NCBI GenBank assembly: GCA_038861545.1
Contig: JAWCCZ010000002.1
Coordinates: 160,001 to 224,000, forward strand
DNA length: 64,000 nt
Source of the DNA: Thermofilaceae archaeon
GTDB lineage: Archaea; Thermoproteota; Thermoprotei; Thermofilales; Thermofilaceae
Direction of reading: 5' to 3'
Part shown: positions 40,067 through 63,318 of the stretch, one piece after another
How positions within the stretch are numbered: the stretch's first letter is position 1
Layout of the letters: the number at the start of each line of letters is the position of its first letter
Position numbers and translations under genes: made by a program
Notes under the pieces: generated by a model
What the model was told of the DNA's origin: nothing
Seen by the model: the letters and a program-made list of their open reading frames with translations, nothing else
Database searches by the model: none

Positions 40067-41143
40067 CTACTCGAACTCCAGCTCCTCCCAGCCCCGGGCA
40101 GGGTAAACTTTAACGTCTTCACTCCTTATGTATAACTTTATTGGAGCTCCCTCGTCGACTTTCTCCTCTGGATCGATATAAGCTATCACCCGATCCCCAT
40201 TAGCATTAACTCTAAGCTGCTTGTAAGTACCTAAAAACATAACTAACTCGACCCTACCCTCTATTTGATTAGCACCTGAAATAGGGGTCAGGGAGAAATC
40301 TTCCGGCCTGAGGACAGCTATAGCCTCGTCCCCTACCTCTCCAACGGTTATACCCTCCAGTTGCAATCCGTTGCTCGTAACTAGCTTAACCCGATCCAAT
40401 TGTTTACCATCAACCCGGCCTTTTAGTAAACTGCCACGTCCTATGAAAGTAGCTATAAAAAGATTTAATGGTTTAGAGTAAACCTCGATGGGAGTGCCAA
40501 CTTGCAATATGCGGCCTTTATTCATTACAGCTACTCTATCTGAGATGCTCATCGCTTCCTCTTGATCATGAGTCACGTAAATTGTGGTTATCCCCAAACG
40601 CTTTTGGAGTCTTTTAAGCTCCTCCCTCATCCTAAGCCTGAGCTTAGCGTCTAAGTTGCTTAGTGGCTCGTCCATTAATAGAACCTTCGGTTCAACTACC
40701 AGGGCTCTGGCTAAAGCTACACGCTGTTGTTGACCACCGCTAAGCTGCAACGGGTAGCGGTTTTCAAGCCCTTCAAGGCCTACCAGTTTTAAAACTTCAT
40801 TTACCCTTCTTCTGATCTCGCTCGAGGCTGCGCCCCTTACCTTTAAACCATAAGCAACATTTTCGAAAACAGTCATATGCGGCCATAGAGCATAGTTCTG
40901 GAACACCATAGCGCAGCCCCTTTCAGACGGTTTCTTGAAGGTTACATCCTCCCCATCAAAAGTTACGTAGCCACTGTCAGGTAGCTCAAAACCGGCTATA
41001 ATTCTCAGCGTAGTCGTTTTCCCGCAACCCGAAGGCCCAAGCAGAGTAAATAGCTCGCTGTGTTCTATACTCAGCGTCACATTGTCAGCAGCTATTATGT
41101 TCTCAAACTTCTTTGAAACTCCTTTAAGGTCTACTCTCGTCAT
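40067..41143 (-). CDS. ABC importer ATP-binding protein (FbpC/AfuC/PotA type)
   Basis: GPSGCGKTT, VFQNYALWPHM, LSGGQQQR, DEPLSNLD, TOBE tail. Confidence 0.95.
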   Translation of the reverse strand: MTRVDLKGVSKKFENIIAADNVTLSIEHSELFTLLGPSGCGKTTTLRIIAGFELPDSGYVTFDGEDVTFKKPSERGCAMVFQNYALWPHMTVFENVAYGLKVRGAASSEIRRRVNEVLKLVGLEGLENRYPLQLSGGQQQRVALARALVVEPKVLLMDEPLSNLDAKLRLRMREELKRLQKRLGITTIYVTHDQEEAMSISDRVAVMNKGRILQVGTPIEVYSKPLNLFIATFIGRGSLLKGRVDGKQLDRVKLVTSNGLQLEGITVGEVGDEAIAVLRPEDFSLTPISGANQIEGRVELVMFLGTYKQLRVNANGDRVIAYIDPEEKVDEGAPIKLYIRSEDVKVYPARGWEELEFE

Positions 41144-41145
41144 AC

Positions 41146-42951
41146 CTACACCCCGATGTAAGCATACCGCTGCTTAAACACTACGTTTACCAGAGTAATC
41201 ACAAACAGCTGAGTAGTTATTAGTAACACACCCAGAGAAGCTACAATATAAGGTCCACCAACTCTCTCAAGGTAATCCATCATAATGTAGGTGATTGGAG
41301 CGCTATGCCTCTCCCCCATCCCGCCTAAACCCCCAAGCGTTACACTGGTGCTTGTTTCACTCATACAGTATACAAAGCTTACCATGACGCCGCTTAGCAG
41401 ACTTAAACCGATTAATGGAAGAACTATATTTATTAGAGTCTTAAACCTTCCTGCTCCCAGGTTCAAGGAAGCTTCTTCCAATGCTATGTGGATTTGTTGA
41501 AGACCTGCAAAAACAGCCCTAGCTGTAAATGGCAACCTCCTTATAGCGTAAGCTAAGACTAATAGCGCCGATGGCCCGCTCGAGATAGGATCCAAGATTG
41601 ATCCCCGGAAAAATGAAGAAAAAAAGTAAAAATACCCAACAGCTAGCACCAGACCTGGTATCGCAACCGGAGAAGTTACTAGGAGATCCAGCAGCTCGAG
41701 TCCTCGAAAACGAGCGATAACGTAGGGGGCTGAGACCCCGATGAAAGCTATTAGGAGTAAAGCGAAAAGCGAGTAGGTTAAACTGTTAAGTATAGCTCTA
41801 GACACTAGGGGGTCTGAAACCATAGAACCTAAATGCTCAAGTGTAAATCCTTCAGGTAGAGGGCCTGTCCACCGCTCAGCGAACGCATAGGCGAAGACTG
41901 CTAGCTGTGGGAAAGCAGAGAACACTAGTAGGGGTGTTAATGCTGTATATACTGCCAGTTTACCTTTTAAACCCAGCCTAGTTACCCTTGGCTTCCACCT
42001 ACCACCCCTACTTAGCATAGCGTACTGCTTCAAAGTCACGTACTTCCTGATAATAGTGAATATAACTAAGGCAAGCATTAGTAAAATCACGGCCAGCTGA
42101 GCGGCAGCCGGTGAAAGCTGACCGGTTGTAGCCTCGATAAATCGGTTAAAAACCTGATAGGATATTAGCCTATGCTCGTTAAATACTATTGGCGCAGCTA
42201 CATCCTCTAACGAGAATATGAAAACCAGTGCAGCACCAGCGGCGAGGCCAGGTAAGGATAAGGGTAAGGTTACTGTTCTGAATAGTCTTAAACTCTTAGC
42301 TCCAAGGTTCTCGGCTTGTTCTTCTAAACTCGGATCAATGTTAACCATGCTAGCGTAAACGTTGAGGTAAACTAAGGGATAGAAAGTCATAATTTGCGCT
42401 ACAGCGACTCCTGCTAATTCCGTAATCCCCAATCTAATGGGTAAACCTAACACGTCGCAGATAAGCCATGATACGATGCCGTCCCTCCAGTCAAATAGCT
42501 TCCTTATTACAAATGAGTTTATAAAAGGTGTTTGAAGAAGAGGTACAGTGGCTAAGATTCTCAGTGCTTGCTTACCCTTAAAATCGTACCGCGCGAAGAT
42601 AAATGCAACGATGACACCGATAACACTGGCGGCGAAGGTTACTACCAGGCCGTTTAAAATAGAGTTAACGACTGCACTGAAACTAATGCCTGTAATCTTG
42701 AAAACAGTAACCTGTCGACCTCGGAACACCACACTACTGGCTGTTAAAAGATTGCTTTTCGGTTTAAGGTCGAAGTAAGTTGGATCATTTAGTAGGTAAG
42801 CCGGATTGTAAAGAGAAGCTGCATAAATAACCGACGCTAAAGGGGCTACTAAGAGAAACATAAACATTAAAACTGGTAAAACTATCAGGATGACTAGAAA
42901 AGGATCAAAGTAGAAAAATAATCTATCTGGTTTACGGAACACACTTTGCAC
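41146..42951 (-). CDS. ABC importer fused permease (FbpB/AfuB type)
   Basis: Two EAA loops (LEEQAENLGA; LEEASLNLGA), about 12 TM. Confidence 0.92.
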   Translation of the reverse strand: MQSVFRKPDRLFFYFDPFLVILIVLPVLMFMFLLVAPLASVIYAASLYNPAYLLNDPTYFDLKPKSNLLTASSVVFRGRQVTVFKITGISFSAVVNSILNGLVVTFAASVIGVIVAFIFARYDFKGKQALRILATVPLLQTPFINSFVIRKLFDWRDGIVSWLICDVLGLPIRLGITELAGVAVAQIMTFYPLVYLNVYASMVNIDPSLEEQAENLGAKSLRLFRTVTLPLSLPGLAAGAALVFIFSLEDVAAPIVFNEHRLISYQVFNRFIEATTGQLSPAAAQLAVILLMLALVIFTIIRKYVTLKQYAMLSRGGRWKPRVTRLGLKGKLAVYTALTPLLVFSAFPQLAVFAYAFAERWTGPLPEGFTLEHLGSMVSDPLVSRAILNSLTYSLFALLLIAFIGVSAPYVIARFRGLELLDLLVTSPVAIPGLVLAVGYFYFFSSFFRGSILDPISSGPSALLVLAYAIRRLPFTARAVFAGLQQIHIALEEASLNLGAGRFKTLINIVLPLIGLSLLSGVMVSFVYCMSETSTSVTLGGLGGMGERHSAPITYIMMDYLERVGGPYIVASLGVLLITTQLFVITLVNVVFKQRYAYIGV

Positions 42952-42958
42952 CCAACTT

Positions 42959-44398
42959 TTAGCCGCCTAAGGATTTTAGAACGGTAGAATAGCGGTCAAT
43001 CGCTGCGCGCTTCCACATAGTAATCAATACATCTTTAAAAGCTGCATCGGATTGAAACTTTTCACATATGGATATTGCATAGTCCTGAGTAAATGTAACG
43101 TTTTCAGATGTTAAAGGATCTGTAAAATTGAGTGGAGCAGTAATCGCGTCCACATACTTTTGATACTCACTCTCCGAAAGCTTACCGGAGAAATAATTGG
43201 CAAGTAAGGCTTTCCAAACGGCTCTCAAGTAATCCTTCACCTCCACAAGCGTGGCTCTAAAGTACCACTGCATAACCGGCTCGTAAGACAATGCCAGCGT
43301 ATCGTTAAACTCGATTGAAGGGGTTTCTAAGGCTCTTTCATAAGCTTCTTTCAAGTCAACTCTACTCGAACCTTCAGGAGTCTCAAAAACCCGTGGATTC
43401 GCTGGTAATCTATTTATCTCGGGGTCCAACCATATTTTCTGCCCCTCTGTTAAGACCCATGCAATAAAAGCCTGCGCAGCCTCCGGGTTTTCACTCCCGA
43501 TGACGAGAGCTATCGGGTCACCGTTAACTATACTTTCACCTTCTGGTACTATATATTCACAGTCCGGGTTAATATACTTGGCAGTATAGCCATAGAAATC
43601 GATCGTTATTGCAGCTGCGGCATCACCTTGAATCACCGCGTCTCGAGCATCACCGCTACCAGGGTAAATTTCCGCGTTCGCGGCCATCAGAGTTAAAAGC
43701 CTCCAACCCTCGTTCCACCCATAGCGTTGAAGGATGATTTCATACATTCGAGTATGGCTTGTGCTTTGAGTAGGGTCAGCTATAGCAAGAGCCGGTTCAT
43801 TAAACTCCACAAGAGTTTTACCCAGCGTAGGGGAAGCCAAGTCTGACCAGCTACGTGGAACGGGGAGATTATAATCCCTTAATCTTACATGGTTAACTGT
43901 GAAACCAAAGCTGGAGATAGCGGCTGCTACCCAGTATATTTCACCGTTCTTCATGCGCTTCATAGGTACACCCATAATTTCATCAGGCACTTGAGTAGCC
44001 GCCTCTATAGCAGCTTTAGATGTTAAAGGCGCTAATAATCCTCTCTGAAATAGTGAATCGAAAAGTGTTGGCCCTCCGCCCCATGCTACATCAGCTTTCT
44101 CACCGGTAATGTAACTTTCCCACAAGCCGGGTGGTAATCCAACTGTTTTTAAATCCGTAATATTGTATTTTTTAGCCACGTCACTGGATAGGAACATTCG
44201 ACGTGCCTTCACAAGTATTTCAGTTGGATGCCTACTTATTACAACCAGCTGTACACTTTTTGATAGTTGATCGCCTGGAGGGGTTTCAGTGGGCTGGCTT
44301 GGAGTGGGTGGTTTCTGAAATAACAAAATCATGATAATTAATCCAACTGCTAATACTGCTATTAGTGCAATCGCTATGGTTTTGCTAATACCTTTCAT
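42959..44398 (-). CDS. ABC importer substrate-binding protein (FbpA/AfuA family)
   Basis: N-terminal anchor, DVAWGGG, PRSWSDL, ADPTQSTS, IDFYG, DPIAL, AQAFIAWVL. Confidence 0.9.
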   Translation of the reverse strand: MKGISKTIAIALIAVLAVGLIIMILLFQKPPTPSQPTETPPGDQLSKSVQLVVISRHPTEILVKARRMFLSSDVAKKYNITDLKTVGLPPGLWESYITGEKADVAWGGGPTLFDSLFQRGLLAPLTSKAAIEAATQVPDEIMGVPMKRMKNGEIYWVAAAISSFGFTVNHVRLRDYNLPVPRSWSDLASPTLGKTLVEFNEPALAIADPTQSTSHTRMYEIILQRYGWNEGWRLLTLMAANAEIYPGSGDARDAVIQGDAAAAITIDFYGYTAKYINPDCEYIVPEGESIVNGDPIALVIGSENPEAAQAFIAWVLTEGQKIWLDPEINRLPANPRVFETPEGSSRVDLKEAYERALETPSIEFNDTLALSYEPVMQWYFRATLVEVKDYLRAVWKALLANYFSGKLSESEYQKYVDAITAPLNFTDPLTSENVTFTQDYAISICEKFQSDAAFKDVLITMWKRAAIDRYSTVLKSLGG

Positions 44399-54720: not shown

Positions 54721-56646
54721 TTAGTATGGAGCCAGCCACGTAGACTTTACCATTATGGCAAAAGATATTAACAGCGAAGTTGCTACACCATATCCAACGA
54801 CTGCACCAGCGTACACAGACCATTTAAGCCTCTCTACTGTTTCACGCTTGAAGCGAATTAGAATCCTATAAATTACGTGACCGATAGCTATCGATATCGC
54901 GTACGGAGGTATAGTTGAAGCTCCCACAGTAAATATCACGAGCGAGAATGGGATGCGTAAAACCTTCGTGACAAAGTGTAGAAGAACTCCTAGTATGAAT
55001 GCTGCTTCGAGAATAGGGTAGCTTTGACCCGGGTTTAGCAAAATCGATTGAAAAGCAGTGCCTCTCGTAATCCATAAGCAGCTTTGGATCACGTTTATGG
55101 GCCAGCTAGCTTGAGCCCAAGGATATGCTTGAGATGGAATCGGACCGAACAACCAAATGATACTCGTGTGGATGAAACTCATTATCAGCGAAAGAGGTAT
55201 CGCGATAGCGGCCACTGTGAGCACAACATCCCTAAGTTTTAATCCTATGTAGCGAGCCACGTAGAAGCGTGTACACCAAGTAACTCCATCACCCGGCATG
55301 GGGGCCAGCCAAGCACTGACTCCAAGCTGGCTGTGAACCGGTATATTACCTGAAGTCTGCGTAGTTATCAGAACTATCTCCCTCAGCGGTATTTGAGCCA
55401 CCGAGTAACCGGTTTCTCCGACACCCCTCGCGTTAATTAGAGTAGAGAATAACGGCCAAAACACCGTCAGAATAGTTAAAGGAAGTATTGGAAATGATGG
55501 AAGGAGCAACGCTAAACTCGCCGTCCAAGCAGCAACGCCTAGAAAATAAATCGCTAACAACTTCCAATACGAGAATCCGACTGGTGCATTACCCCTCGCG
55601 CTACCTCCAAGTGTTGAGAAAGCACTTTTAAGGAACCTGCCTATGCGTGTTAGCTCAACAACCATTATCGCGAAAGTTAAGCCCACGAACGCGCTGCTCC
55701 AAACATGTAGGTACGTGAACTGCCAGTTCAGCGTTATATTGAATCCTGGTGTCCACTCAGGAACCAAATCCCTGAAGTAGGATAACAGTAAGGAGTTACC
55801 GATTATCCATATGGTGATAGAGCCGATTAGCATAAGTACAACGTTAAATGTCGGAAGAATCAATCCTGCAAAGAATGTGAATAAGTCTGTAGCGATTCCT
55901 AGCAGAGTGCCGGGTAAGCCCAGCAAAGATTCGGCCCCTACTGATAGGTCAATAAAAGGTACCGGTATTAGCGTTACCACTCTGCCTCCCATCGTAGAGC
56001 CCAGTATATACGGTGTATAAACAAGCAGTGCGTAGACAAAAGCCGCTATAAAACCAAGAACCATAGCTCGCATTTTCTCATGCTCTCTTTCGCCCAGCGT
56101 AACAGCAATCTCTGCATCCACCCTAGCGAAGGGGAAAGGAAGTTTCTCCTCTATTACGTACATTTGATAAGCAAGGTATCCCAAGGGGAGTTCTATCACA
56201 AGCGGTAAAATAACCCCTAAGACAATTGAAACAAGAATTGGAATGAACCACTCCGGGTGAAGGAAAGTTCTGATTACCTGTTGTCTGATCAGAGGGTTAC
56301 TGGGAACCCACCATTCTGGTAGGTATTCAGTTACGCCGAAAGCCATTGCTTCAGGGCTGTTAGCAAAGTAAACCCTGTATATGAACTGGAAAAAGAACAC
56401 ATTATAGGCGGAGAGGCTTATTGCCAGATTCATCAAGTATATCTCCTGTGATGAAAGGAAACGGCCTCCAAAACTCCTGAGCACAAAGTTAAACAATAGA
56501 ATAGTTGTAAATGCAAGTCCTCCCGCGGCTCCCCCTATTAAGTTCATCCATATAGCTACTGGCATCAATGCGAGCGACGCAAAAATAGCAGCCAGTACAA
56601 CGCGGAAGGTTATACCGCTCACCAATTGGGATTCTTGTATGCTCAT
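54721..56646 (-). CDS. OPT/YSL-superfamily-like multi-pass transporter (start moved to ATG 56646, ATGA-coupled to the upstream gene)
   Basis: About 16 TM; GITFRVVLAA, LSSQEIY, EEKLPFPFARV resemble OPT-family motifs. Confidence 0.75.
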   Translation of the reverse strand: MSIQESQLVSGITFRVVLAAIFASLALMPVAIWMNLIGGAAGGLAFTTILLFNFVLRSFGGRFLSSQEIYLMNLAISLSAYNVFFFQFIYRVYFANSPEAMAFGVTEYLPEWWVPSNPLIRQQVIRTFLHPEWFIPILVSIVLGVILPLVIELPLGYLAYQMYVIEEKLPFPFARVDAEIAVTLGEREHEKMRAMVLGFIAAFVYALLVYTPYILGSTMGGRVVTLIPVPFIDLSVGAESLLGLPGTLLGIATDLFTFFAGLILPTFNVVLMLIGSITIWIIGNSLLLSYFRDLVPEWTPGFNITLNWQFTYLHVWSSAFVGLTFAIMVVELTRIGRFLKSAFSTLGGSARGNAPVGFSYWKLLAIYFLGVAAWTASLALLLPSFPILPLTILTVFWPLFSTLINARGVGETGYSVAQIPLREIVLITTQTSGNIPVHSQLGVSAWLAPMPGDGVTWCTRFYVARYIGLKLRDVVLTVAAIAIPLSLIMSFIHTSIIWLFGPIPSQAYPWAQASWPINVIQSCLWITRGTAFQSILLNPGQSYPILEAAFILGVLLHFVTKVLRIPFSLVIFTVGASTIPPYAISIAIGHVIYRILIRFKRETVERLKWSVYAGAVVGYGVATSLLISFAIMVKSTWLAPY

Positions 56647-59600
56647 GCAAACCACCCCCCAGCTTTTTCGATATACAGTTTTCTATCTTCTTCTTTTAGA
56701 GAACGCCAAACTAGCAGCCGTTTCCTGACCTCATCTACAAATCTCAGGTGATTAGCAATCCAGAGCTGGCGAGGGCCTGAAAGGTGTTCACTAGTCAGGA
56801 TAAGGCGAAATCTTAGTTCGCGTGGGCCTTTCCTAGCAATTAGCTGAATGCGCTCTTCAACTCCTAACTCGTATGGCCTTAGTCGAACCCTCATATCTGA
56901 TATGTAGGCTGTCTCCCTTCCTGACACGCTCTTAGAGTATGAAAGCCCAGTCACCATAAATGGCTGGGCTTCGCTACCGTAGGCGCGAAGGGATTCTCCA
57001 ATGAAAGCTAGTAATCCTCTCGACTCAGCTTCATTCCTAACGGTGAAAGGTAGCGAAATATCCCATCTACTTCCTCTAGGTCCAGAGGATGGCCTCCACT
57101 TTCGCTCAAGGGAAGGTACAACGATTTTCGATGCCATGTAGGCGGGGTAGACAGATGCTGTAACCACAGCTAAAATCGACACCAAGATACTCGTCACCAC
57201 AGCTAGAGATGCATAGTTAAGTAATGGACCAGCTGCAACAGGTCCTAAAGCAAGACCTAAAGTATACCCTAGCGGTGCACTAAGAAAAGCATATGTGAGA
57301 ACTTCTCCGAAGAAAACACCAGCCGCATCTCTCGGGCTAGCACCCACAGTAGCGTAAACCTGCATGTCCCGCATCCTTTCATATAAAGTTCCTAGAACCA
57401 CTGACACTAACATTAGGAAACTTATCACCATAGGCACAAGTACAAACTGCCATCCTCCACCTAAGTAAGCTACTTCTCTTCGTAGATAAAGGAAACTGGA
57501 GCCTGGAGCTTCTTCCGTAGCTGCATATACATTATGGGAATAGAACCCTATATACTCACTTAATTCATTGGCAACTTGCCTTATTAGATCCTTATCGTTC
57601 GACAGTAAAGCTACAGAAAAGGGATACCCACCTAAGCGCATGGCAAGCTTATATGGTATGTAAACAACCCCCCAATATGCCCGCTCCTTGATTGGCCCCG
57701 TTTTAAGGGGGTCAAAAGGTACGATTGGCTGACCGTCTAAGTCATATATCGTTCTAAGCAGTCTGCTGTCTATAATTCCCATTACAGTAAGCTCCATGCC
57801 GTAAAGGTATACCCTGTCACCTGGCTCTAGATTCAAAGTTCTGGCTATATCATCAGTTACATAGCATTGAAACTCATCATCAAGCGTGAACCATGGACTT
57901 AATGCCTCTATAATTACATTCTGGAGTTCTAAAGCTTCAGCCTCAGCCTTAGATAAGCCGATTATTCCGCTTATTAGCACCGACTGGCCTGCAATGTTAA
58001 ACAAATATATTCTCTGAGCTGGAATCCAAACCCTTGGGACAATTTTCATTTTTTCACCGTAAACCGTTGTCAAGTAATCAAGGAAAATAGGGTTGATTGG
58101 CTGAAAAGCTTCTCTACGTGTAACTAAAACTCCCGTGTAACGTGGGCTCCAAGTTACAGCTGGCTGTCCTGGTGGAGGTAAAGTAACTGTAACCCATGTG
58201 GAAGAGAGAGCGACAAATGATACTGTCGAGAACGTCACTAACGTTACGCCAATAATTGTAAGTACAGTCCTCATATGTCTTCGCCTCAGGTTCTCCACTC
58301 CTATACTGATAGCAGTCATGGTCAACGATAACCTGTCAACGGTAACGAACATAGGTCCCATAAACCTGCTACGTATTTCTCTCACTATATTGCTGAATTC
58401 GTCAAACATTAATATCATCACAGGGATAACTAGTATTAGCGAAGTAGCGCCGAGAGCCGTTAGGAAAGAGTAACTCGCCACTTTAAATCCAGGATGAAGT
58501 AAATACTGAATTACAGTCAGCGTTAACATTATCGAAACCAACGCTATTAACCGTTTCTTTCCCTCATAGTGTAGCACCAATCTTTCGAACATAAAGACGA
58601 ATGGTAAATTAAGCAAGAAAAAGAAAACCATTGCAACTCCCGTATCAATCACCATTGACTTGCTTTTCTCATAAGCATAAAGTGCGTAGTACCAAGCTTG
58701 TACGGTGTAGGCATAGTAATCGCTATAGCGGTATTCCATCAGAGCACTTTCAGCGAGCTCGAGATTTCTAAGAGCTTTTCTATAGAACTCATCTAAATCT
58801 GCTGCTGTGGCCCCCATAAGACCTGCGCCAGTGAGAGCTTCAACCCTTCTTTTCACGACAGCTAGCAGATCTCTTGTGACTCTGAGTATCGTGGGAGCCG
58901 TATCTAAATAGTTAAAGGACACCGGCACTCCTTCCTCGTCGTTTATGAGTAACCCAATCGGATTCCCCCCACTGGTGAGAACCATCTTAATGCAGATATC
59001 CTTTGGAACAAATACCACAGCTTCGTAACCTGAGGTTGGATCAGTTAACGTGAATCTCCCTTCTGGTTTTTCAAAAATGGGTGGCTCTGATACAACATAG
59101 CTGTAACTTGTTAACCCTATACCTGACCTGTCAAGTATTTGTATACCCCCAACTGGAGGGGTCAAGAGGGAACGTGGATCAAAGAACTCATGCAGCGCTA
59201 ATGTCGCCGACCTAAAGACTGCCAAGTTGACTAACTTTCTACCGCTTCCATCAATTAATTCTGTTTCAGAGGTAAAGAAGGTGTAACCGTAGGGCCAAGA
59301 TCTCGTACCGTAAACACCATAATCTGGAGCAAAAACTATATCGCCGGTTAACTTATCAATGATAAAGGGTAAAACCTGGTACTTAGCCACCGGCACTGCC
59401 CATCCGACACTTGGCGTCAATCCTTTCAAAGTAAAAGTCCCGTCCCTATCAGCAAGCTCTACCCATTCATGCCCAAGAAGATCGTTTCTCTCAAGAATCT
59501 TTACGTGTAGGACCATTTGATACCTTTCCTCTCTCAGATAGTCATGCCAGCTGTAGTTGTACCAGCCATGCTTAATATCCCATCTTCCAACCCTACCTTT

Positions 59601-61223
59601 CACAACGGTAAACCCAAGACCTCCTGTTTCAAAGTGCGTATGCGTTGGAATAGCCCTTCCCATAATTGACGCTTTGTCATAACTAATCCAAGATATATCA
59701 TCTATTATCGCCCTAGCTAAGACAAATGAAAGTTCTACCTGAGGCCATAGGTTCTCAAAGTTTAATTTATCTAATGTGTCGAGGGGAGTTCCGTAAAGCG
59801 GCCGTGCAGTTAATGCTGTTGTAAAAGTTATCCCCCAAATACCCACTTGAGCTATAACAGCTGCATCAAAATGTCCTGGAGTTTGCAGATAACGGCGGTC
59901 AAGCTGTAAGCCAAAAGCAGTATACGTAAGGTTCCCAAGGCGTTCTTTGAGTTTTTCCCTAAGCTCGTCGCTACCCAAGTAGTATGTTCCAGAGCTCTCA
60001 TTATACCTGCCATACCTACCCCGTGTGAAAAAGAGTGAGTAAAGGTCGTTATAACCGTACCAAGAATACCATACCTGTACACCGTAAAAAGTGCTTCCCG
60101 CGACAGCGGCAATAGCTCTCGATTCGGTTGAGAAATCAAAGCCAACGGCGAACCATAGTGTGTATGAGGTCAAGGAAGAGGCGTCGTTGCTACCTATGTG
60201 GCTGTAATGCCAAATGAAGCTAGAATTCTGGATATCTCGTCGATGCCAAACAAAATTCCTAGCACCTGCCATAGCTTGAGCGTGGCCTGATAGAGCTACG
60301 AGCCAAACAGACCTCTTAGGTGGATACTCTTTTAGAATCCTCGCAAATTCTAGTAAAGCTGTGATTCCTCCGGCTTCGTTCGCACCTGGAGCCAGTGCCG
60401 GTACTATAGAGTTGGAATCATAGTATGCTACTACGACAACTGCATTTCGCCACTCTGCAGGATCGGTCCCCTTTATAACCGCGACTATGTTTTTAGCGGT
60501 AACTCTTTCCCACGTCATATTGACTACAACACGCGCCTTAACTTTCCCAACGCCGTAGTTTCTGATAAGTTCCCTCAAATAACCGGCATCACCACTGCTT
60601 ATGTAAATTCTTGGGAATTTCACGGGGATATCCAAGCTTTTATGCTCAGCTTCACCTCTTAAGGTAAATACCGGTTCAATGAATACTACAGCTTTAGCAC
60701 CAAGTCTCATAGCGTTAAGCCAATTATCTCTAGAGTTGAACTCCATTAACGCAATGCTACCGTTAATAGGCAATCCATTCAACTCCTCAAGCGACCCCTC
60801 ACCAACGTACACTAGTGGACCTTCAAAAACCCCGCTGCATGTTTGAACGTTATTGGGTAAAAGGGCATAAGCTTTAATCTCCCTGTAAGTGGGGTCAAGA
60901 ATAACGATCTTTGAGCCCCAATCCATTGGTATAGTTACGTTGTATTCTTCTACAAAAGTTTCTAAGCCCAGCGTGCTGTTAAAGTAGTCGAATATGTAGT
61001 TTGCTACCTCAATGCTTCCAGGATAACCGGTGTACCTACTCCGAGAAGCTATATACCTTAAGTGTTCGATAATTTTACTACGATTAATCGTCAGCAGGGT
61101 AGTCTGTATAATGTTATCAGTTTCAGAGAACTCAGCTAGAACTCCTCTAAATAAACCTGCAGGATACGGTAAAGCCGATAAAATTAATACGAGCACCAAA
61201 GCAAACTTCAACCACTTATACAT
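56643..61223 (-). CDS. Giant membrane protein: M28/PA peptidase-like ectodomain fused to a MacB/FtsX-type permease
   Basis: Signal peptide; SRYTGYPG, PA domain, NIVAVIKG, AYYDS, APGANE; internal TM block; NLRRRHMRTVLTIIG and ERMRDMQVYATVGAS (FtsX permease hallmarks). Confidence 0.8.
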   Translation of the reverse strand: MYKWLKFALVLVLILSALPYPAGLFRGVLAEFSETDNIIQTTLLTINRSKIIEHLRYIASRSRYTGYPGSIEVANYIFDYFNSTLGLETFVEEYNVTIPMDWGSKIVILDPTYREIKAYALLPNNVQTCSGVFEGPLVYVGEGSLEELNGLPINGSIALMEFNSRDNWLNAMRLGAKAVVFIEPVFTLRGEAEHKSLDIPVKFPRIYISSGDAGYLRELIRNYGVGKVKARVVVNMTWERVTAKNIVAVIKGTDPAEWRNAVVVVAYYDSNSIVPALAPGANEAGGITALLEFARILKEYPPKRSVWLVALSGHAQAMAGARNFVWHRRDIQNSSFIWHYSHIGSNDASSLTSYTLWFAVGFDFSTESRAIAAVAGSTFYGVQVWYSWYGYNDLYSLFFTRGRYGRYNESSGTYYLGSDELREKLKERLGNLTYTAFGLQLDRRYLQTPGHFDAAVIAQVGIWGITFTTALTARPLYGTPLDTLDKLNFENLWPQVELSFVLARAIIDDISWISYDKASIMGRAIPTHTHFETGGLGFTVVKGRVGRWDIKHGWYNYSWHDYLREERYQMVLHVKILERNDLLGHEWVELADRDGTFTLKGLTPSVGWAVPVAKYQVLPFIIDKLTGDIVFAPDYGVYGTRSWPYGYTFFTSETELIDGSGRKLVNLAVFRSATLALHEFFDPRSLLTPPVGGIQILDRSGIGLTSYSYVVSEPPIFEKPEGRFTLTDPTSGYEAVVFVPKDICIKMVLTSGGNPIGLLINDEEGVPVSFNYLDTAPTILRVTRDLLAVVKRRVEALTGAGLMGATAADLDEFYRKALRNLELAESALMEYRYSDYYAYTVQAWYYALYAYEKSKSMVIDTGVAMVFFFLLNLPFVFMFERLVLHYEGKKRLIALVSIMLTLTVIQYLLHPGFKVASYSFLTALGATSLILVIPVMILMFDEFSNIVREIRSRFMGPMFVTVDRLSLTMTAISIGVENLRRRHMRTVLTIIGVTLVTFSTVSFVALSSTWVTVTLPPPGQPAVTWSPRYTGVLVTRREAFQPINPIFLDYLTTVYGEKMKIVPRVWIPAQRIYLFNIAGQSVLISGIIGLSKAEAEALELQNVIIEALSPWFTLDDEFQCYVTDDIARTLNLEPGDRVYLYGMELTVMGIIDSRLLRTIYDLDGQPIVPFDPLKTGPIKERAYWGVVYIPYKLAMRLGGYPFSVALLSNDKDLIRQVANELSEYIGFYSHNVYAATEEAPGSSFLYLRREVAYLGGGWQFVLVPMVISFLMLVSVVLGTLYERMRDMQVYATVGASPRDAAGVFFGEVLTYAFLSAPLGYTLGLALGPVAAGPLLNYASLAVVTSILVSILAVVTASVYPAYMASKIVVPSLERKWRPSSGPRGSRWDISLPFTVRNEAESRGLLAFIGESLRAYGSEAQPFMVTGLSYSKSVSGRETAYISDMRVRLRPYELGVEERIQLIARKGPRELRFRLILTSEHLSGPRQLWIANHLRFVDEVRKRLLVWRSLKEEDRKLYIEKAGGWFA

Positions 61224-61272: not shown

Positions 61273-63318
61273 CTACCTGCCTTGTATAGCGAACACTATA
61301 CCCCTAGCTGGCAGGTAACCGATGAAAGCACCTATGAATAGGCCGAGGAACGCTGGAAAAGCTTTCTCTTCATAGAACTTAGATCCAAAGATCTTAAGTA
61401 TTAAGAACTTAATTACGTATGCTACTAAACCATAGAGGAACGCGTAGAAACTCACGGAGAATAGCATTAATCCAACAGGGTTAAGTGGGAACCAGGCGAA
61501 ACGCATCCTAGCAAAACCCATAGCGAGCACTAATAGTACACCGAGTAAAACATTCAAGTAGAAGTACGGAGCTTTATCTCCTCCATAGGGTCCGAAACCT
61601 CCCTTCATTAAACCGTCAACCGTAGCGGGCCATACCAGCTGCTGACCAGCCCACCAATCCGCTACATAGTTTTTCACACCAACGTTCGAGATAACCTGAG
61701 CTAACAGCGTGAAAGTCAAGGGTACAGCAACTAACGTTGCTATTAATTGTGCTATAAAGACTTCTTTAAGGTCGGTTTTCGTGGACTCGGCTATGCTCAT
61801 AGCTTCAATACCAGCAATACCATAGTTCCACTGTGCATACCATTTCTGACCTGGCCCCTCTACGAAATTCCTTGTCACGTAAAGGTGTAATGCTTGTTCA
61901 CCAGTTAACGGAGTATAGAAGCCAGGAGCTGCACCTACAGCTACAGCTAGATGATAGAAACCGTTTGACAAGATATCGCTGCCTCCTGTCCACGGTCCCC
62001 AATTCCCTGCCATAAAACCGGGCCAGACGTCTCCTCTTATTCTAATCTGGGTGAACAACGAGAATGCTAGAACAAAAACTGCATAGAATGCTAACAGGGG
62101 ATGTGCACCAGATACAGACATGAAAGCAAATAACAGCGCAGTTGAACCAATTATCATTACCCATATAGTTCTGTAGGACAGCGGTACATTACCCTTGCCG
62201 CCCCTAGACAAAGCCTTCAACGTTCTAGTTAAGTGGTGTCTCGCCATCCATATGGTTAAAATACCAATGCCTATCCACACACTGTGATCAAGTATAACCT
62301 CAGGCATTATTGGTGGAGTATCCATACCCATAGTGTAGAAGACCGGCCATTCTGATGATCCAAACATCGGCTCTCTAAAGCCTCCAGCAACCGCTATTAT
62401 CGGCCATATTATCCAGAATACAATGAAGGCGACTATACCTGTTAACAGTATGTCAAGTGGGAACAAAAGATAGTAGCTTAAACCTAAGATATCTATACTC
62501 CATGCTATCAGAGCATTAGTGAAAGGAGTTGGTAATTGTCCAACATAAGACACATCGTAACCTATGTATGAGGGTATAGATTGTTGAATAGCAGGTACTA
62601 ATTCGACACCAGGTGGCCCTTGCACATTTATTAAAAGCCCAATTGCGAAGGCGACCCAGAAGAAAATAGATTTCCATAGATTTGGTATCCTACCTCCCTC
62701 CTTTACAGTTGTACTTTGAATTGCAAGCCATTCAGCAACTCTTGCTAGTGGATATTCAAGCCTTTCAACTTCGAGGAACTGCTCCTTGTAAAGTAACGCG
62801 ATACCATATGATAACGCGAAAAGCATTAATTGTATGAAAGTGAAAAGTATAACTGTAGGGAAAAGCGCGCTTATTGGAGCTCCTCCGTCCCAGAGCTGGT
62901 CTTTAAGACCTTTTGGTACCCAGAAACCGGGAACAGCATCCCAGCTTAACACGAAATCAGACTGAAGGATGCCGAAAAGATACGAAAATGTAGCTAATCC
63001 TACACAGAAAGGCACTGGCACCATACTCCAGATAATAGCATAAACTATGGTGTTTTCCTGTGCAGAGAGCCGCTTTCTAAGTATTAATGAACTTAGTAGA
63101 CTCGTGATAACTAAGGTCAAGAGAAAGACGAAGTACTGAGTGCCAAAGAATACCATTACTCTAAGAGTCCGCCTAACCGATAATCGCGGCCACCAGTATA
63201 AAGGTAGAATGAAAAGAATTCCAGCCACCAAACCTATTAGAAGAGCTCTCAATGTTAATCCTTTAGGCCTCACCTCAACTGTGGCTCCAGAGGTGATTTG
63301 AACACCTTCTGTGCTCAT
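61273..63318 (-). CDS. OPT-like / DUF6785-type multi-pass membrane transporter
   Basis: GLTLRALLIG, LSAQENTIVY, ERLEYPLARV, RFAWFPLNPVG, IKFLILKIFG...PAFLGLFIG. Confidence 0.75.
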   Translation of the reverse strand: MSTEGVQITSGATVEVRPKGLTLRALLIGLVAGILFILPLYWWPRLSVRRTLRVMVFFGTQYFVFLLTLVITSLLSSLILRKRLSAQENTIVYAIIWSMVPVPFCVGLATFSYLFGILQSDFVLSWDAVPGFWVPKGLKDQLWDGGAPISALFPTVILFTFIQLMLFALSYGIALLYKEQFLEVERLEYPLARVAEWLAIQSTTVKEGGRIPNLWKSIFFWVAFAIGLLINVQGPPGVELVPAIQQSIPSYIGYDVSYVGQLPTPFTNALIAWSIDILGLSYYLLFPLDILLTGIVAFIVFWIIWPIIAVAGGFREPMFGSSEWPVFYTMGMDTPPIMPEVILDHSVWIGIGILTIWMARHHLTRTLKALSRGGKGNVPLSYRTIWVMIIGSTALLFAFMSVSGAHPLLAFYAVFVLAFSLFTQIRIRGDVWPGFMAGNWGPWTGGSDILSNGFYHLAVAVGAAPGFYTPLTGEQALHLYVTRNFVEGPGQKWYAQWNYGIAGIEAMSIAESTKTDLKEVFIAQLIATLVAVPLTFTLLAQVISNVGVKNYVADWWAGQQLVWPATVDGLMKGGFGPYGGDKAPYFYLNVLLGVLLVLAMGFARMRFAWFPLNPVGLMLFSVSFYAFLYGLVAYVIKFLILKIFGSKFYEEKAFPAFLGLFIGAFIGYLPARGIVFAIQGR

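What the first reader, a model, noticed from the sequence alone, without database searches (positions are those of the whole stretch)
59700..61223. The M28 domain of the giant protein appears catalytically dead (nicastrin-like receptor?)
Seen: the canonical M28 zinc-site motifs are substituted. AHxD reads AYYD (about 60415-60430), GAxDD reads GANEA, and the xEExG catalytic motif reads SGHAQAMAG. The fold-defining context and the PA insert are retained. Known: nicastrin and the transferrin receptor are inactive M28 homologues reused as substrate receptors. Inference: this ectodomain captures ligand rather than cleaving it, a prokaryotic parallel to those receptors.
Basis: partly seen in the sequence, partly recalled or inferred. 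Interest (0 to 1): 0.75.

Follow-up and report, generated by a model that had tools for sequence, protein, structure and literature searches.

The report
Dead peptidase head on archaeal transporter
A giant surface protein of an archaeon carries an aminopeptidase-shaped head that has lost its two-zinc cutting site but keeps a remodelled pocket under selection, and its gene neighbours suggest that it catches sugar-carrying peptide fragments for an undescribed uptake machine.

Summary
Observation confirmed. Residues 40-510 of the 1526-aa M28-PA/MacB-FtsX fusion fold like an M28 aminopeptidase with a PA insert (pLDDT 90). The di-zinc site is gone: H97>Y267, E151>H314, E152>A315, H256>G478; only D363 and an acid at 282/283 remain. 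None of 262 homologues keeps the Zn1 triad.

The pocket is not simply decaying. 252/262 keep one His at either 267 or 314, and the two sites compensate. 228/262 have a His/acid/Asp triad, so one metal is not excluded. S1-pocket and PA-lid positions are subfamily-specific.

The gene sits between two OPT-fold carriers, with no ATPase in cis. Its orthologues lie near a glycosylasparaginase-like gene in 14 of 15 other loci, against 0 of 27 paralogue-class loci; in this genome that gene is unlinked.

Best reading: a non-cutting binding head for N-glycopeptide or glyco-Asn uptake (about 0.5; binding not tested). The nicastrin and TfR analogy is loose: TfR binds outside the old pocket, and nicastrin's pocket-receptor model is judged unlikely.

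The scan found this module before on other DNA and in this genome; the His swap and the glycosylasparaginase link did not appear in the notes I saw. No paper found.

The parts
56643..61223 (-). Giant 1526-aa membrane protein P0001: M28-PA pseudo-peptidase head, two beta-sandwiches, helical stalk, 4 TM, MacB/FtsX module, conserved C-terminal domain
61137..61223 (-). N-terminal hydrophobic segment (signal peptide or anchor), residues 1-29; places the head outside the cell (inferred)
   Evidence: hydropathy
60930..61106 (-). N-terminal part of the M28 fold (residues 40-98) with the conserved R-x-x-G-Y-x-G motif
60504..60929 (-). PA insert (residues 99-240) with near-invariant N124, W168, E191, K195, R205
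59694..60503 (-). M28 core (residues 241-510) with the remodelled metal site
60417..60428 (-). AYYD: Y267 at the His97 ligand site; D269 invariant (262/262)
60372..60386 (-). GANEA: one-residue deletion; N282/E283 at the bridging Asp117 site
60264..60290 (-). SGHAQAMAG: H314 at the general-base Glu151 site, A315 at the Glu152 ligand site
60135..60137 (-). D363: retained Asp179-type ligand
59784..59795 (-). YGTP: G478 at the His256 ligand site
59889..60257 (-). Clade-specific inserts (residues 323-445) with 12 conserved Trp/Tyr (W326, W338, Y340, Y380, W385, W388, Y389, Y391, Y404, Y407, Y414, Y434)
58899..59609 (-). Two beta-sandwich domains (about residues 539-775); only generic fold matches
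58269..58898 (-). Helical stalk, four TM helices and an amphipathic/cytoplasmic helix (residues 776-985)
57123..58268 (-). MacB/FtsX-type module (residues 986-1367): FtsX E 3e-9, MacB_PCD E 0.013 (below cut-off)
61273..63318 (-). DUF6785/DUF6784 membrane protein P0002 (681 aa), distant homologue of the OPT-like partner
54721..56655 (-). OPT-like membrane protein P0003 (644 aa), start overlapping the giant's stop

Best explanation
The domain is an M28-PA pseudo-peptidase that no longer performs di-zinc peptide hydrolysis (shown by sequence; about 0.9). It serves as the extracellular binding head of a three-protein uptake module: the giant plus two OPT-fold carriers (gene module shown; complex and direction inferred). 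The old active-site cleft, closed by the PA lid, holds the cargo without cutting it. It uses a His from position 314 or 267, D363 and an acid at 282/283, with or without one metal ion, plus subfamily-specific pocket residues (inferred). In this orthologue clade the cargo is most likely an N-glycopeptide or glyco-asparagine, handed to the carriers and split in the cytoplasm by a glycosylasparaginase and alpha-mannosidases (inferred from gene neighbourhood; about 0.35-0.4 for this cargo). The energy source is unresolved: ion-coupled through the OPT-fold subunits, or an ABC ATPase encoded elsewhere.
For: Fold intact: AF2 pLDDT 90.4, pTM 0.92; VIA Z 27.7, rmsd 2.5 A over 269 residues to Aeromonas aminopeptidase 1amp. 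Loss family-wide: among 262 homologues Glu151 site is E in 1, Glu152 site D/E in 4, His256 site H in 4, Zn1 triad in 0. Pocket still constrained: His at 267 or 314 in 252/262; H314 lost 22 times on the tree, 18 of these where 267 is His against 12.4 expected from neighbours (rough p 4e-5). Nine S1-pocket-equivalent positions and the PA segment 187-199 are conserved within and different between subfamilies (p 5e-5 to 0.004 over three clade cuts). Six paralogous modules in one 1.6-Mb genome at 26-36% identity. 86 of 99 giants have an OPT-like gene within 6 kb. Glycosylasparaginase-like gene (best PDB hit E 2.6e-60, isoaspartyl peptidase 6e-46) near the orthologous module in 14 of 15 other loci, at varied positions, against 0 of 27 paralogue-class loci; 8 of 8 genomes with the orthologous module carry it, against 41 of 293 others. 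GH38 and GH42-like genes are in several of these loci. Conserved Trp/Tyr about twice as dense in the clade's inserts (12/123 vs 41/854, p 0.03). Precedent: L. casei imports fucosyl-GlcNAc-Asn by a permease encoded with an intracellular glycosylasparaginase (PMC6960285).
Against: No binding or transport data. In this genome the glycosylasparaginase-like gene (C1:307852) and the GH38 genes are unlinked, and the window's own neighbours give no glycan clue. About half of the linked loci come from one genus, so there are only about six or seven independent lineages. The His compensation fits a single-metal enzyme equally well. Described eukaryotic M28 pseudo-enzymes do not use the old pocket as a proven receptor. 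The S1 position set was mapped from remembered Aeromonas numbering after seeing the ranking, so its p-values are optimistic. Known MacB/FtsX systems export, extract or signal rather than import (established knowledge).
Confidence: 0.5

Rival explanations
1. Structural cap or steric gate: the dead domain is a scaffold that holds the complex together or limits access to the carriers, as GPAA1, nicalin and nicastrin do in eukaryotic membrane complexes. The old pocket binds nothing external.
For: GPAA1 has the 2EK8-like fold without a Zn motif, and mutating candidate ligands had no effect (PMC9098846). Nicastrin acts as a gatekeeper. The most invariant residues lie in the PA domain and fold core. 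Bulky W/F/Y fills the Glu152 site in 183/262 homologues. The H/Y swap could be a packing constraint.
Against: Pocket and lid positions are subfamily-specific; six diverged paralogues coexist; this clade tracks one catabolic enzyme and has its own conserved aromatic inserts.
Confidence: 0.22
2. Remodelled single-metal enzyme: H314 (or H267), E283 and D363 bind one ion at the old Zn2 position and catalyse a slow or different reaction, such as trimming glycopeptides or an amidase or cyclase reaction, coupled to uptake.
For: His/acid/Asp triad in 228/262 homologues, this protein included; His compensation; the Aeromonas E151H mutant is described as functional (2anp); glutaminyl cyclases are one-zinc enzymes on this fold (Z 23-24; metal number from established knowledge); glycosylasparaginase needs a substrate trimmed to a single Asn.
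Against: If H314 is the ligand, no general base remains. Glutaminyl cyclases use the Zn1 site, which is the one lost here. 34 of 262 homologues lack the triad and 10 lack both His. Position 283 is N or S in the large, probably bacterial, clade.
Confidence: 0.15
3. Export, extraction or surface-assembly machine: the MacB/FtsX base moves or presents an envelope substrate (as LolCDE or FtsEX do), and the dead domain is the fused outer partner.
For: FtsX domain above cut-off; homologues score weakly with MacB, LolC/E and FtsX models; a bacterial locus adds a small FtsX protein, an ABC ATPase and a PqqD-like protein.
Against: The constant partners are OPT-fold proteins, a family of importers; neighbours are catabolic enzymes without an evident signal peptide; no ATPase is in cis at any of the six loci in this genome.
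Confidence: 0.13

Closest known systems
PA-containing M28 aminopeptidases (Aneurinibacillus AM-1 2ek8, B. subtilis YwaD 6hc6, P. aeruginosa PaAP, Aeromonas AAP)
   Same: Best sequence and fold matches: profile E 1.2e-32 to 2ek8; VIA Z 27-28; same PA insertion; second-shell Asp and Asp179 ligand kept.
   Different: Both His ligands, Glu151 and Glu152 replaced; about 100 residues of aromatic inserts; fused to a multi-pass MacB/FtsX membrane protein.
Transferrin receptor 1
   Same: Inactive protease-like domain plus apical (PA) domain; profile E 6e-14, Z 27.0; serves uptake.
   Different: No helical dimerisation domain (beta-sandwiches follow instead); multi-pass; TfR binds ligand on outer surfaces.
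Nicastrin and nicalin
   Same: Inactive M28-like ectodomains of membrane complexes; nicalin matches a 40-residue stretch around AxYD...GA (E 6e-6) about as well as active aminopeptidases do.
   Different: Nicastrin matches only at E about 1; its E333 site is His here; the partners are OPT-fold carriers, not presenilin/APH-1 or TMEM147/NOMO; single-pass versus multi-pass.
GPAA1 of GPI transamidase
   Same: M28 fold lacking the Zn motif, on a multi-pass base (Z 20.0; PMC9098846).
   Different: No MacB/FtsX module or OPT partners; eukaryotic ER complex with a separate cysteine-protease subunit.
Type VII ABC permeases (MacB, LolC/E, FtsX)
   Same: FtsX-type C-terminal membrane module with a large outer core domain.
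   Different: 850-residue extra ectodomain, four extra TM helices, no ATPase in cis, constant OPT-fold partners.
L. casei alf-2 pathway (AlfH permease, AlfC, AsnA2)
   Same: Transporter encoded with an intracellular glycosylasparaginase and glycosidases (PMC6960285).
   Different: Uses a single MFS permease with no surface binding protein; no homology to this module was tested or implied.

Membership tests
Active M28 di-zinc aminopeptidases | M28 alpha/beta fold | tested here: met
   Pfam PF04389 above cut-off; Z 27.7, rmsd 2.5 A to 1amp
Active M28 di-zinc aminopeptidases | His97 ligand (HxD) | tested here: not met
   Y267; His in 111/262 homologues
Active M28 di-zinc aminopeptidases | Bridging Asp117 | tested here: inconclusive
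   One-residue deletion; the site maps to N282 or E283 depending on the anchor
Active M28 di-zinc aminopeptidases | General base Glu151 and ligand Glu152 (EE) | tested here: not met
   H314-A315; E in 1/262 and D/E in 4/262
Active M28 di-zinc aminopeptidases | Asp/Glu179 ligand | tested here: met
   D363; acid in 235/262
Active M28 di-zinc aminopeptidases | His256 ligand (YHT) | tested here: not met
   G478; His in 4/262
Active M28 di-zinc aminopeptidases | Bound metal and peptidase activity | not testable with these tools
Glutaminyl-cyclase-type one-zinc M28 enzymes | Zn1 triad Asp/Glu/His | tested here: not met
   0/262
Nicastrin | Pfam Nicastrin (PF05450) or specific sequence kinship | tested here: inconclusive
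   No hit for P0001; weak hits in 28/89 homologues, best E 8e-6; PDB nicastrin E about 1
Nicastrin | Glu at the general-base site (E333) | tested here: not met
   His314; equivalence of E333 to Glu151 is from established knowledge
Nicastrin | Single-pass type I topology | tested here: not met
   At least eight TM segments after the ectodomain
Transferrin receptor / GCPII | Protease-like plus apical (PA) domains | tested here: met
Transferrin receptor / GCPII | C-terminal helical dimerisation domain, type II anchor | tested here: not met
   Beta-sandwiches follow the M28 core; multi-pass C-terminal anchor
Type VII ABC permeases | FtsX-type TM module | tested here: met
   PF02687 E 3e-9, above cut-off
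Type VII ABC permeases | Cognate ABC ATPase | tested here: inconclusive
   None adjacent at six loci; present beside a bacterial homologue and one archaeal locus L096; the genome has 46 ABC matches over cut-off elsewhere
OPT/YSL transporters (partner P0003) | Pfam PF03169 | tested here: inconclusive
   P0003 itself no hit; 10/28 homologues hit, best E 7.8e-12; Atlas neighbours carry OPT in 21-31% of members

The most novel reading that the evidence does not exclude
An aminopeptidase was converted into a non-cutting, possibly single-metal receptor for N-glycopeptides. It is fused to a MacB/FtsX base and feeds two OPT-fold carriers. This would be an undescribed class of importer by which uncultured archaea and bacteria scavenge glycoprotein fragments, with paralogues tuned to different glycans through the old S1 pocket and the PA lid.
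Probability: 0.3. Interest if true: 0.8.

Novelty: new variant of a known kind. Interest (0 to 1): 0.6.

Why it matters
Inactive M28 domains are known as parts of eukaryotic membrane complexes, and whether their old pocket binds anything is disputed. This is a large prokaryotic family (1274 clusters at 50% identity score E <= 1e-30 with the profile, including some ordinary PA-M28 proteins) in which the pocket is rebuilt rather than erased. Its head domain should be expressible alone, comes from a probable thermophile, and now has a named candidate ligand and three residues to mutate. That makes pocket use by an M28 pseudo-enzyme directly testable. It also gives a cargo prediction for an uptake module that no paper found describes and that is present in up to six copies in these small genomes.

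Tried and rejected
Complex prediction of P0003 with P0001 residues 672-990: no verdict (score 0.16, mark 0.32); not used as evidence either way.

Special kinship to nicastrin or nicalin: nicastrin and nicalin were not among the top 50 of the wide structural search (inconclusive), and the sequence signal is confined to about 40 residues; not claimed. A NOMO-like match of the first beta-sandwich (9c7u_B, Z 6.7) is at the level of pilins and fibronectin domains; rejected as generic.

E455 (Glu in 227/262) as a new catalytic residue: it is the inherited Glu of the SDHES motif of 2ek8 and is Ala here. H451 as an alternative ligand: not conserved.

My first reading, that the frequent H/Y flips at 267 (at least 36 changes) prove a metal-free pocket, was withdrawn after finding compensation by H314.

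Stand-alone ectodomains: the short-protein search found only two weaker hits, one annotated as partial. Giant-OPT fusions reported in earlier notes were not seen among my homologues.

Promoter and terminator scan was at chance level. Atlas search of the C-terminal domain gave nothing.

Full report
Observation. The finding covers residues 1-508 of a 1526-aa ORF at 56643-61223 on the minus strand. Pfam finds Peptidase_M28 (245-352), MacB_PCD (986-1222, below cut-off) and FtsX (1260-1367). The three motifs are at 60417-60428, 60372-60386 and 60264-60290. I use Aeromonas aminopeptidase numbering (established knowledge). Alignments to 2ek8, 6hc6 and 2anp give His97>Y267, Asp117>N282 or E283 (one-residue deletion), Glu151>H314, Glu152>A315, Asp179=D363 and His256>G478. 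Two canonical PA-M28 proteins of the same genome show H, DN/DD, EE, D, H in those columns, which validates the mapping.

Fold. The AlphaFold2 model of residues 30-540 has pLDDT 90.4 and pTM 0.92. It matches PA-containing aminopeptidases, GCPII and the transferrin receptor about equally (Foldseek E 1e-29 to 1e-22; VIA Z 26-28), with rmsd 2.5 A over 269 residues to 1amp. Residues 500-990 model as two beta-sandwiches, a helical stalk and four TM helices, with only generic matches. The head therefore stands outside the membrane on a stalk (inferred from the N-terminal hydrophobic segment).

The loss is old and family-wide. Homologues of full length occur in Thermoproteota, Bathyarchaeia, Brockarchaeota, Micrarchaeia, Armatimonadota and WOR-3; the closest named ones are Thermofilaceae. 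In 262 sequences from two searches the Glu151 site is Glu once, the Glu152 site acidic four times, the His256 site His four times, and no sequence has the Zn1 triad. The only His/Asp/Glu/Cys-dominated columns in the cleft are 269, 282, 283, 314, 363, 453 and 455; 453 and 455 are inherited from the SDHES motif. A canonical bimetal site cannot be rebuilt from these.

The pocket is remodelled, not erased. Position 267 flips between His and non-His (mostly Tyr) at least 36 times on a tree built without the site columns. Yet 252 of 262 sequences keep a His at 267 or 314 (10 lack both, 20.7 expected). H314 was lost 22 times, 18 of them where 267 is His, against 12.4 expected from tree neighbours (rough p 4e-5). 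With D363 and an acid at 282/283, a His/acid/Asp triad is present in 228 of 262, this protein included. It could bind one ion at the old Zn2 position or be a hydrogen-bonding and stacking pair; I had no coordinates to decide. Positions equivalent to the S1 pocket and the PA segment 187-199, around invariant E191 and K195, are conserved within and different between subfamilies. That is the pattern of a specificity pocket, but the position set was chosen with hindsight.

Context. The gene lies between a DUF6785/6784 protein and an OPT-like protein, which are homologous to each other (hhalign probability 96.8; PF03169 in 10 of 28 homologues). The genome has six such giants at 26-36% identity, each beside an OPT-like gene, none beside an ABC ATPase. 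Across 30 genomes, 86 of 99 giants have the OPT-like gene within 6 kb. A bacterial locus adds PqqD-like, small FtsX and ABC ATPase genes.

Cargo clue. Orthologues of this copy (47-60% identity in the head) are encoded near an asparaginase-2 gene whose best solved match is Flavobacterium glycosylasparaginase. It is present in L011, L092, L104-L112, L122, L123 and G073:C50, upstream or downstream, on either strand. It was not seen in L121, whose contig ends inside the module, nor in any of 27 loci of other paralogue classes. GH38 alpha-mannosidase, GH42-like and DUF5107 genes join in one genus. In the Thermofilum-type sister locus L123 the enzyme and a PadR gene lie 9.6 kb upstream; in this genome the same pair (69% identical over 130 residues) is on another contig. 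All 8 genomes with the orthologous module have the enzyme, against 41 of 293 others; kin inflate this. The L092 enzyme shows no evident signal peptide (read from its sequence), and glycosylasparaginases act on glycans bearing a single Asn (PMC6960285), so such a substrate must be imported. L. casei does this with a permease in the same cluster. The clade's inserts at 323-445 carry 12 conserved Trp/Tyr, about twice the density elsewhere in the outer domains (p 0.03), as glycan-binding surfaces often do (established knowledge).

TfR is a receptor, but the listed transferrin contacts are on the helical domain and at residues 122-125, 662 and 664 (PMC9957567). Nicastrin's E333 receptor model is judged unlikely and its role is steric gating (PMC6551803). 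GPAA1 has the same fold without a Zn motif and tolerates mutation of candidate ligands (PMC9098846). So 'works like an inactive M28 ectodomain of a membrane complex' holds; membership of the nicastrin or TfR families does not; and these precedents support a scaffold as much as a receptor.

Verdict. Shown: intact fold, lost di-zinc site, constrained and subfamily-specific pocket, fixed partnership with OPT-fold genes, and clade-level linkage to a glycosylasparaginase-like gene. Inferred: ligand capture in the old cleft, hand-over to the carriers, N-glycopeptide cargo. Odds: binding head for uptake 0.5, scaffold 0.22, single-metal enzyme 0.15, export or assembly 0.13. No paper found describes the family. 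Earlier notes of this scan describe the module many times; they are leads, not support. Interest 0.6.

Noticed in passing
window 56646-57113 (P0001 residues 1371-1526): Probably cytoplasmic C-terminal domain with many near-invariant residues (R1374, W1376, P1382, W1488, R1500, W1506), no Pfam or Atlas match; a candidate docking site for an ATPase or the carriers.
   Followed up: partly
G000 C1:389820-393092, C1:255369-257513, C4:120563-123589: Three more large MacB/FtsX-type proteins without an M28 head; one lies 5 kb from a giant module. Similar ones flank giants in L085 and L093.
   Followed up: no
L002:11456-13561 (G000 C1:247455-249563): The DUF6785-type paralogue of that module is in two ORFs (173 and 490 aa): a possible frameshift or assembly error.
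   Followed up: no
L096:25-1831: In the complete genome G046 two ABC ATPases and an FtsX-like fragment lie 3 kb from the module, with a GH57 gene between: an archaeal case with a motor in cis.
   Followed up: no
P0098 locus: Bacterial version: giant, 678-aa protein, 275- and 343-aa unknowns, PqqD-like, small FtsX, ABC ATPase; a divergent operon with DUF6754.
   Followed up: no
L002:4252-4944, L089:5359-6015, L091:5199-5882: A conserved 219-231-aa protein is encoded convergently, overlapping the 3' end of one paralogue class of giants.
   Followed up: no
29 of 31 genomes with a strong glycosylasparaginase-like match (E about 1e-55 or better) also have a match to the giant's head profile, against 33 of 270 others; confounded by kinship.
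   Followed up: partly
P0133: One homologue keeps His97, an acid, His151, Asp179 and His256 sites and lacks only Glu152: the most nearly intact site and a good control for activity assays.
   Followed up: no
genus g2 of the window's family: Six near-complete genomes of a sister genus have no match to the giant at E 1e-30, while this genome has six copies.
   Followed up: no
window 59556-61085: Nine N-x-S/T sequons in the ectodomain; the head is probably itself N-glycosylated.
   Followed up: no
window 40067-44398: Unrelated sugar-type ABC importer (binding protein, double permease, ATPase with TOBE domain) 10 kb downstream; not the module's ATPase type.
   Followed up: partly
L109, L110 (G143) and L084: G143 has two copies of the orthologous module, both with the asparaginase-2 gene; L084 has a duplicated DUF6785 gene.
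   Followed up: no
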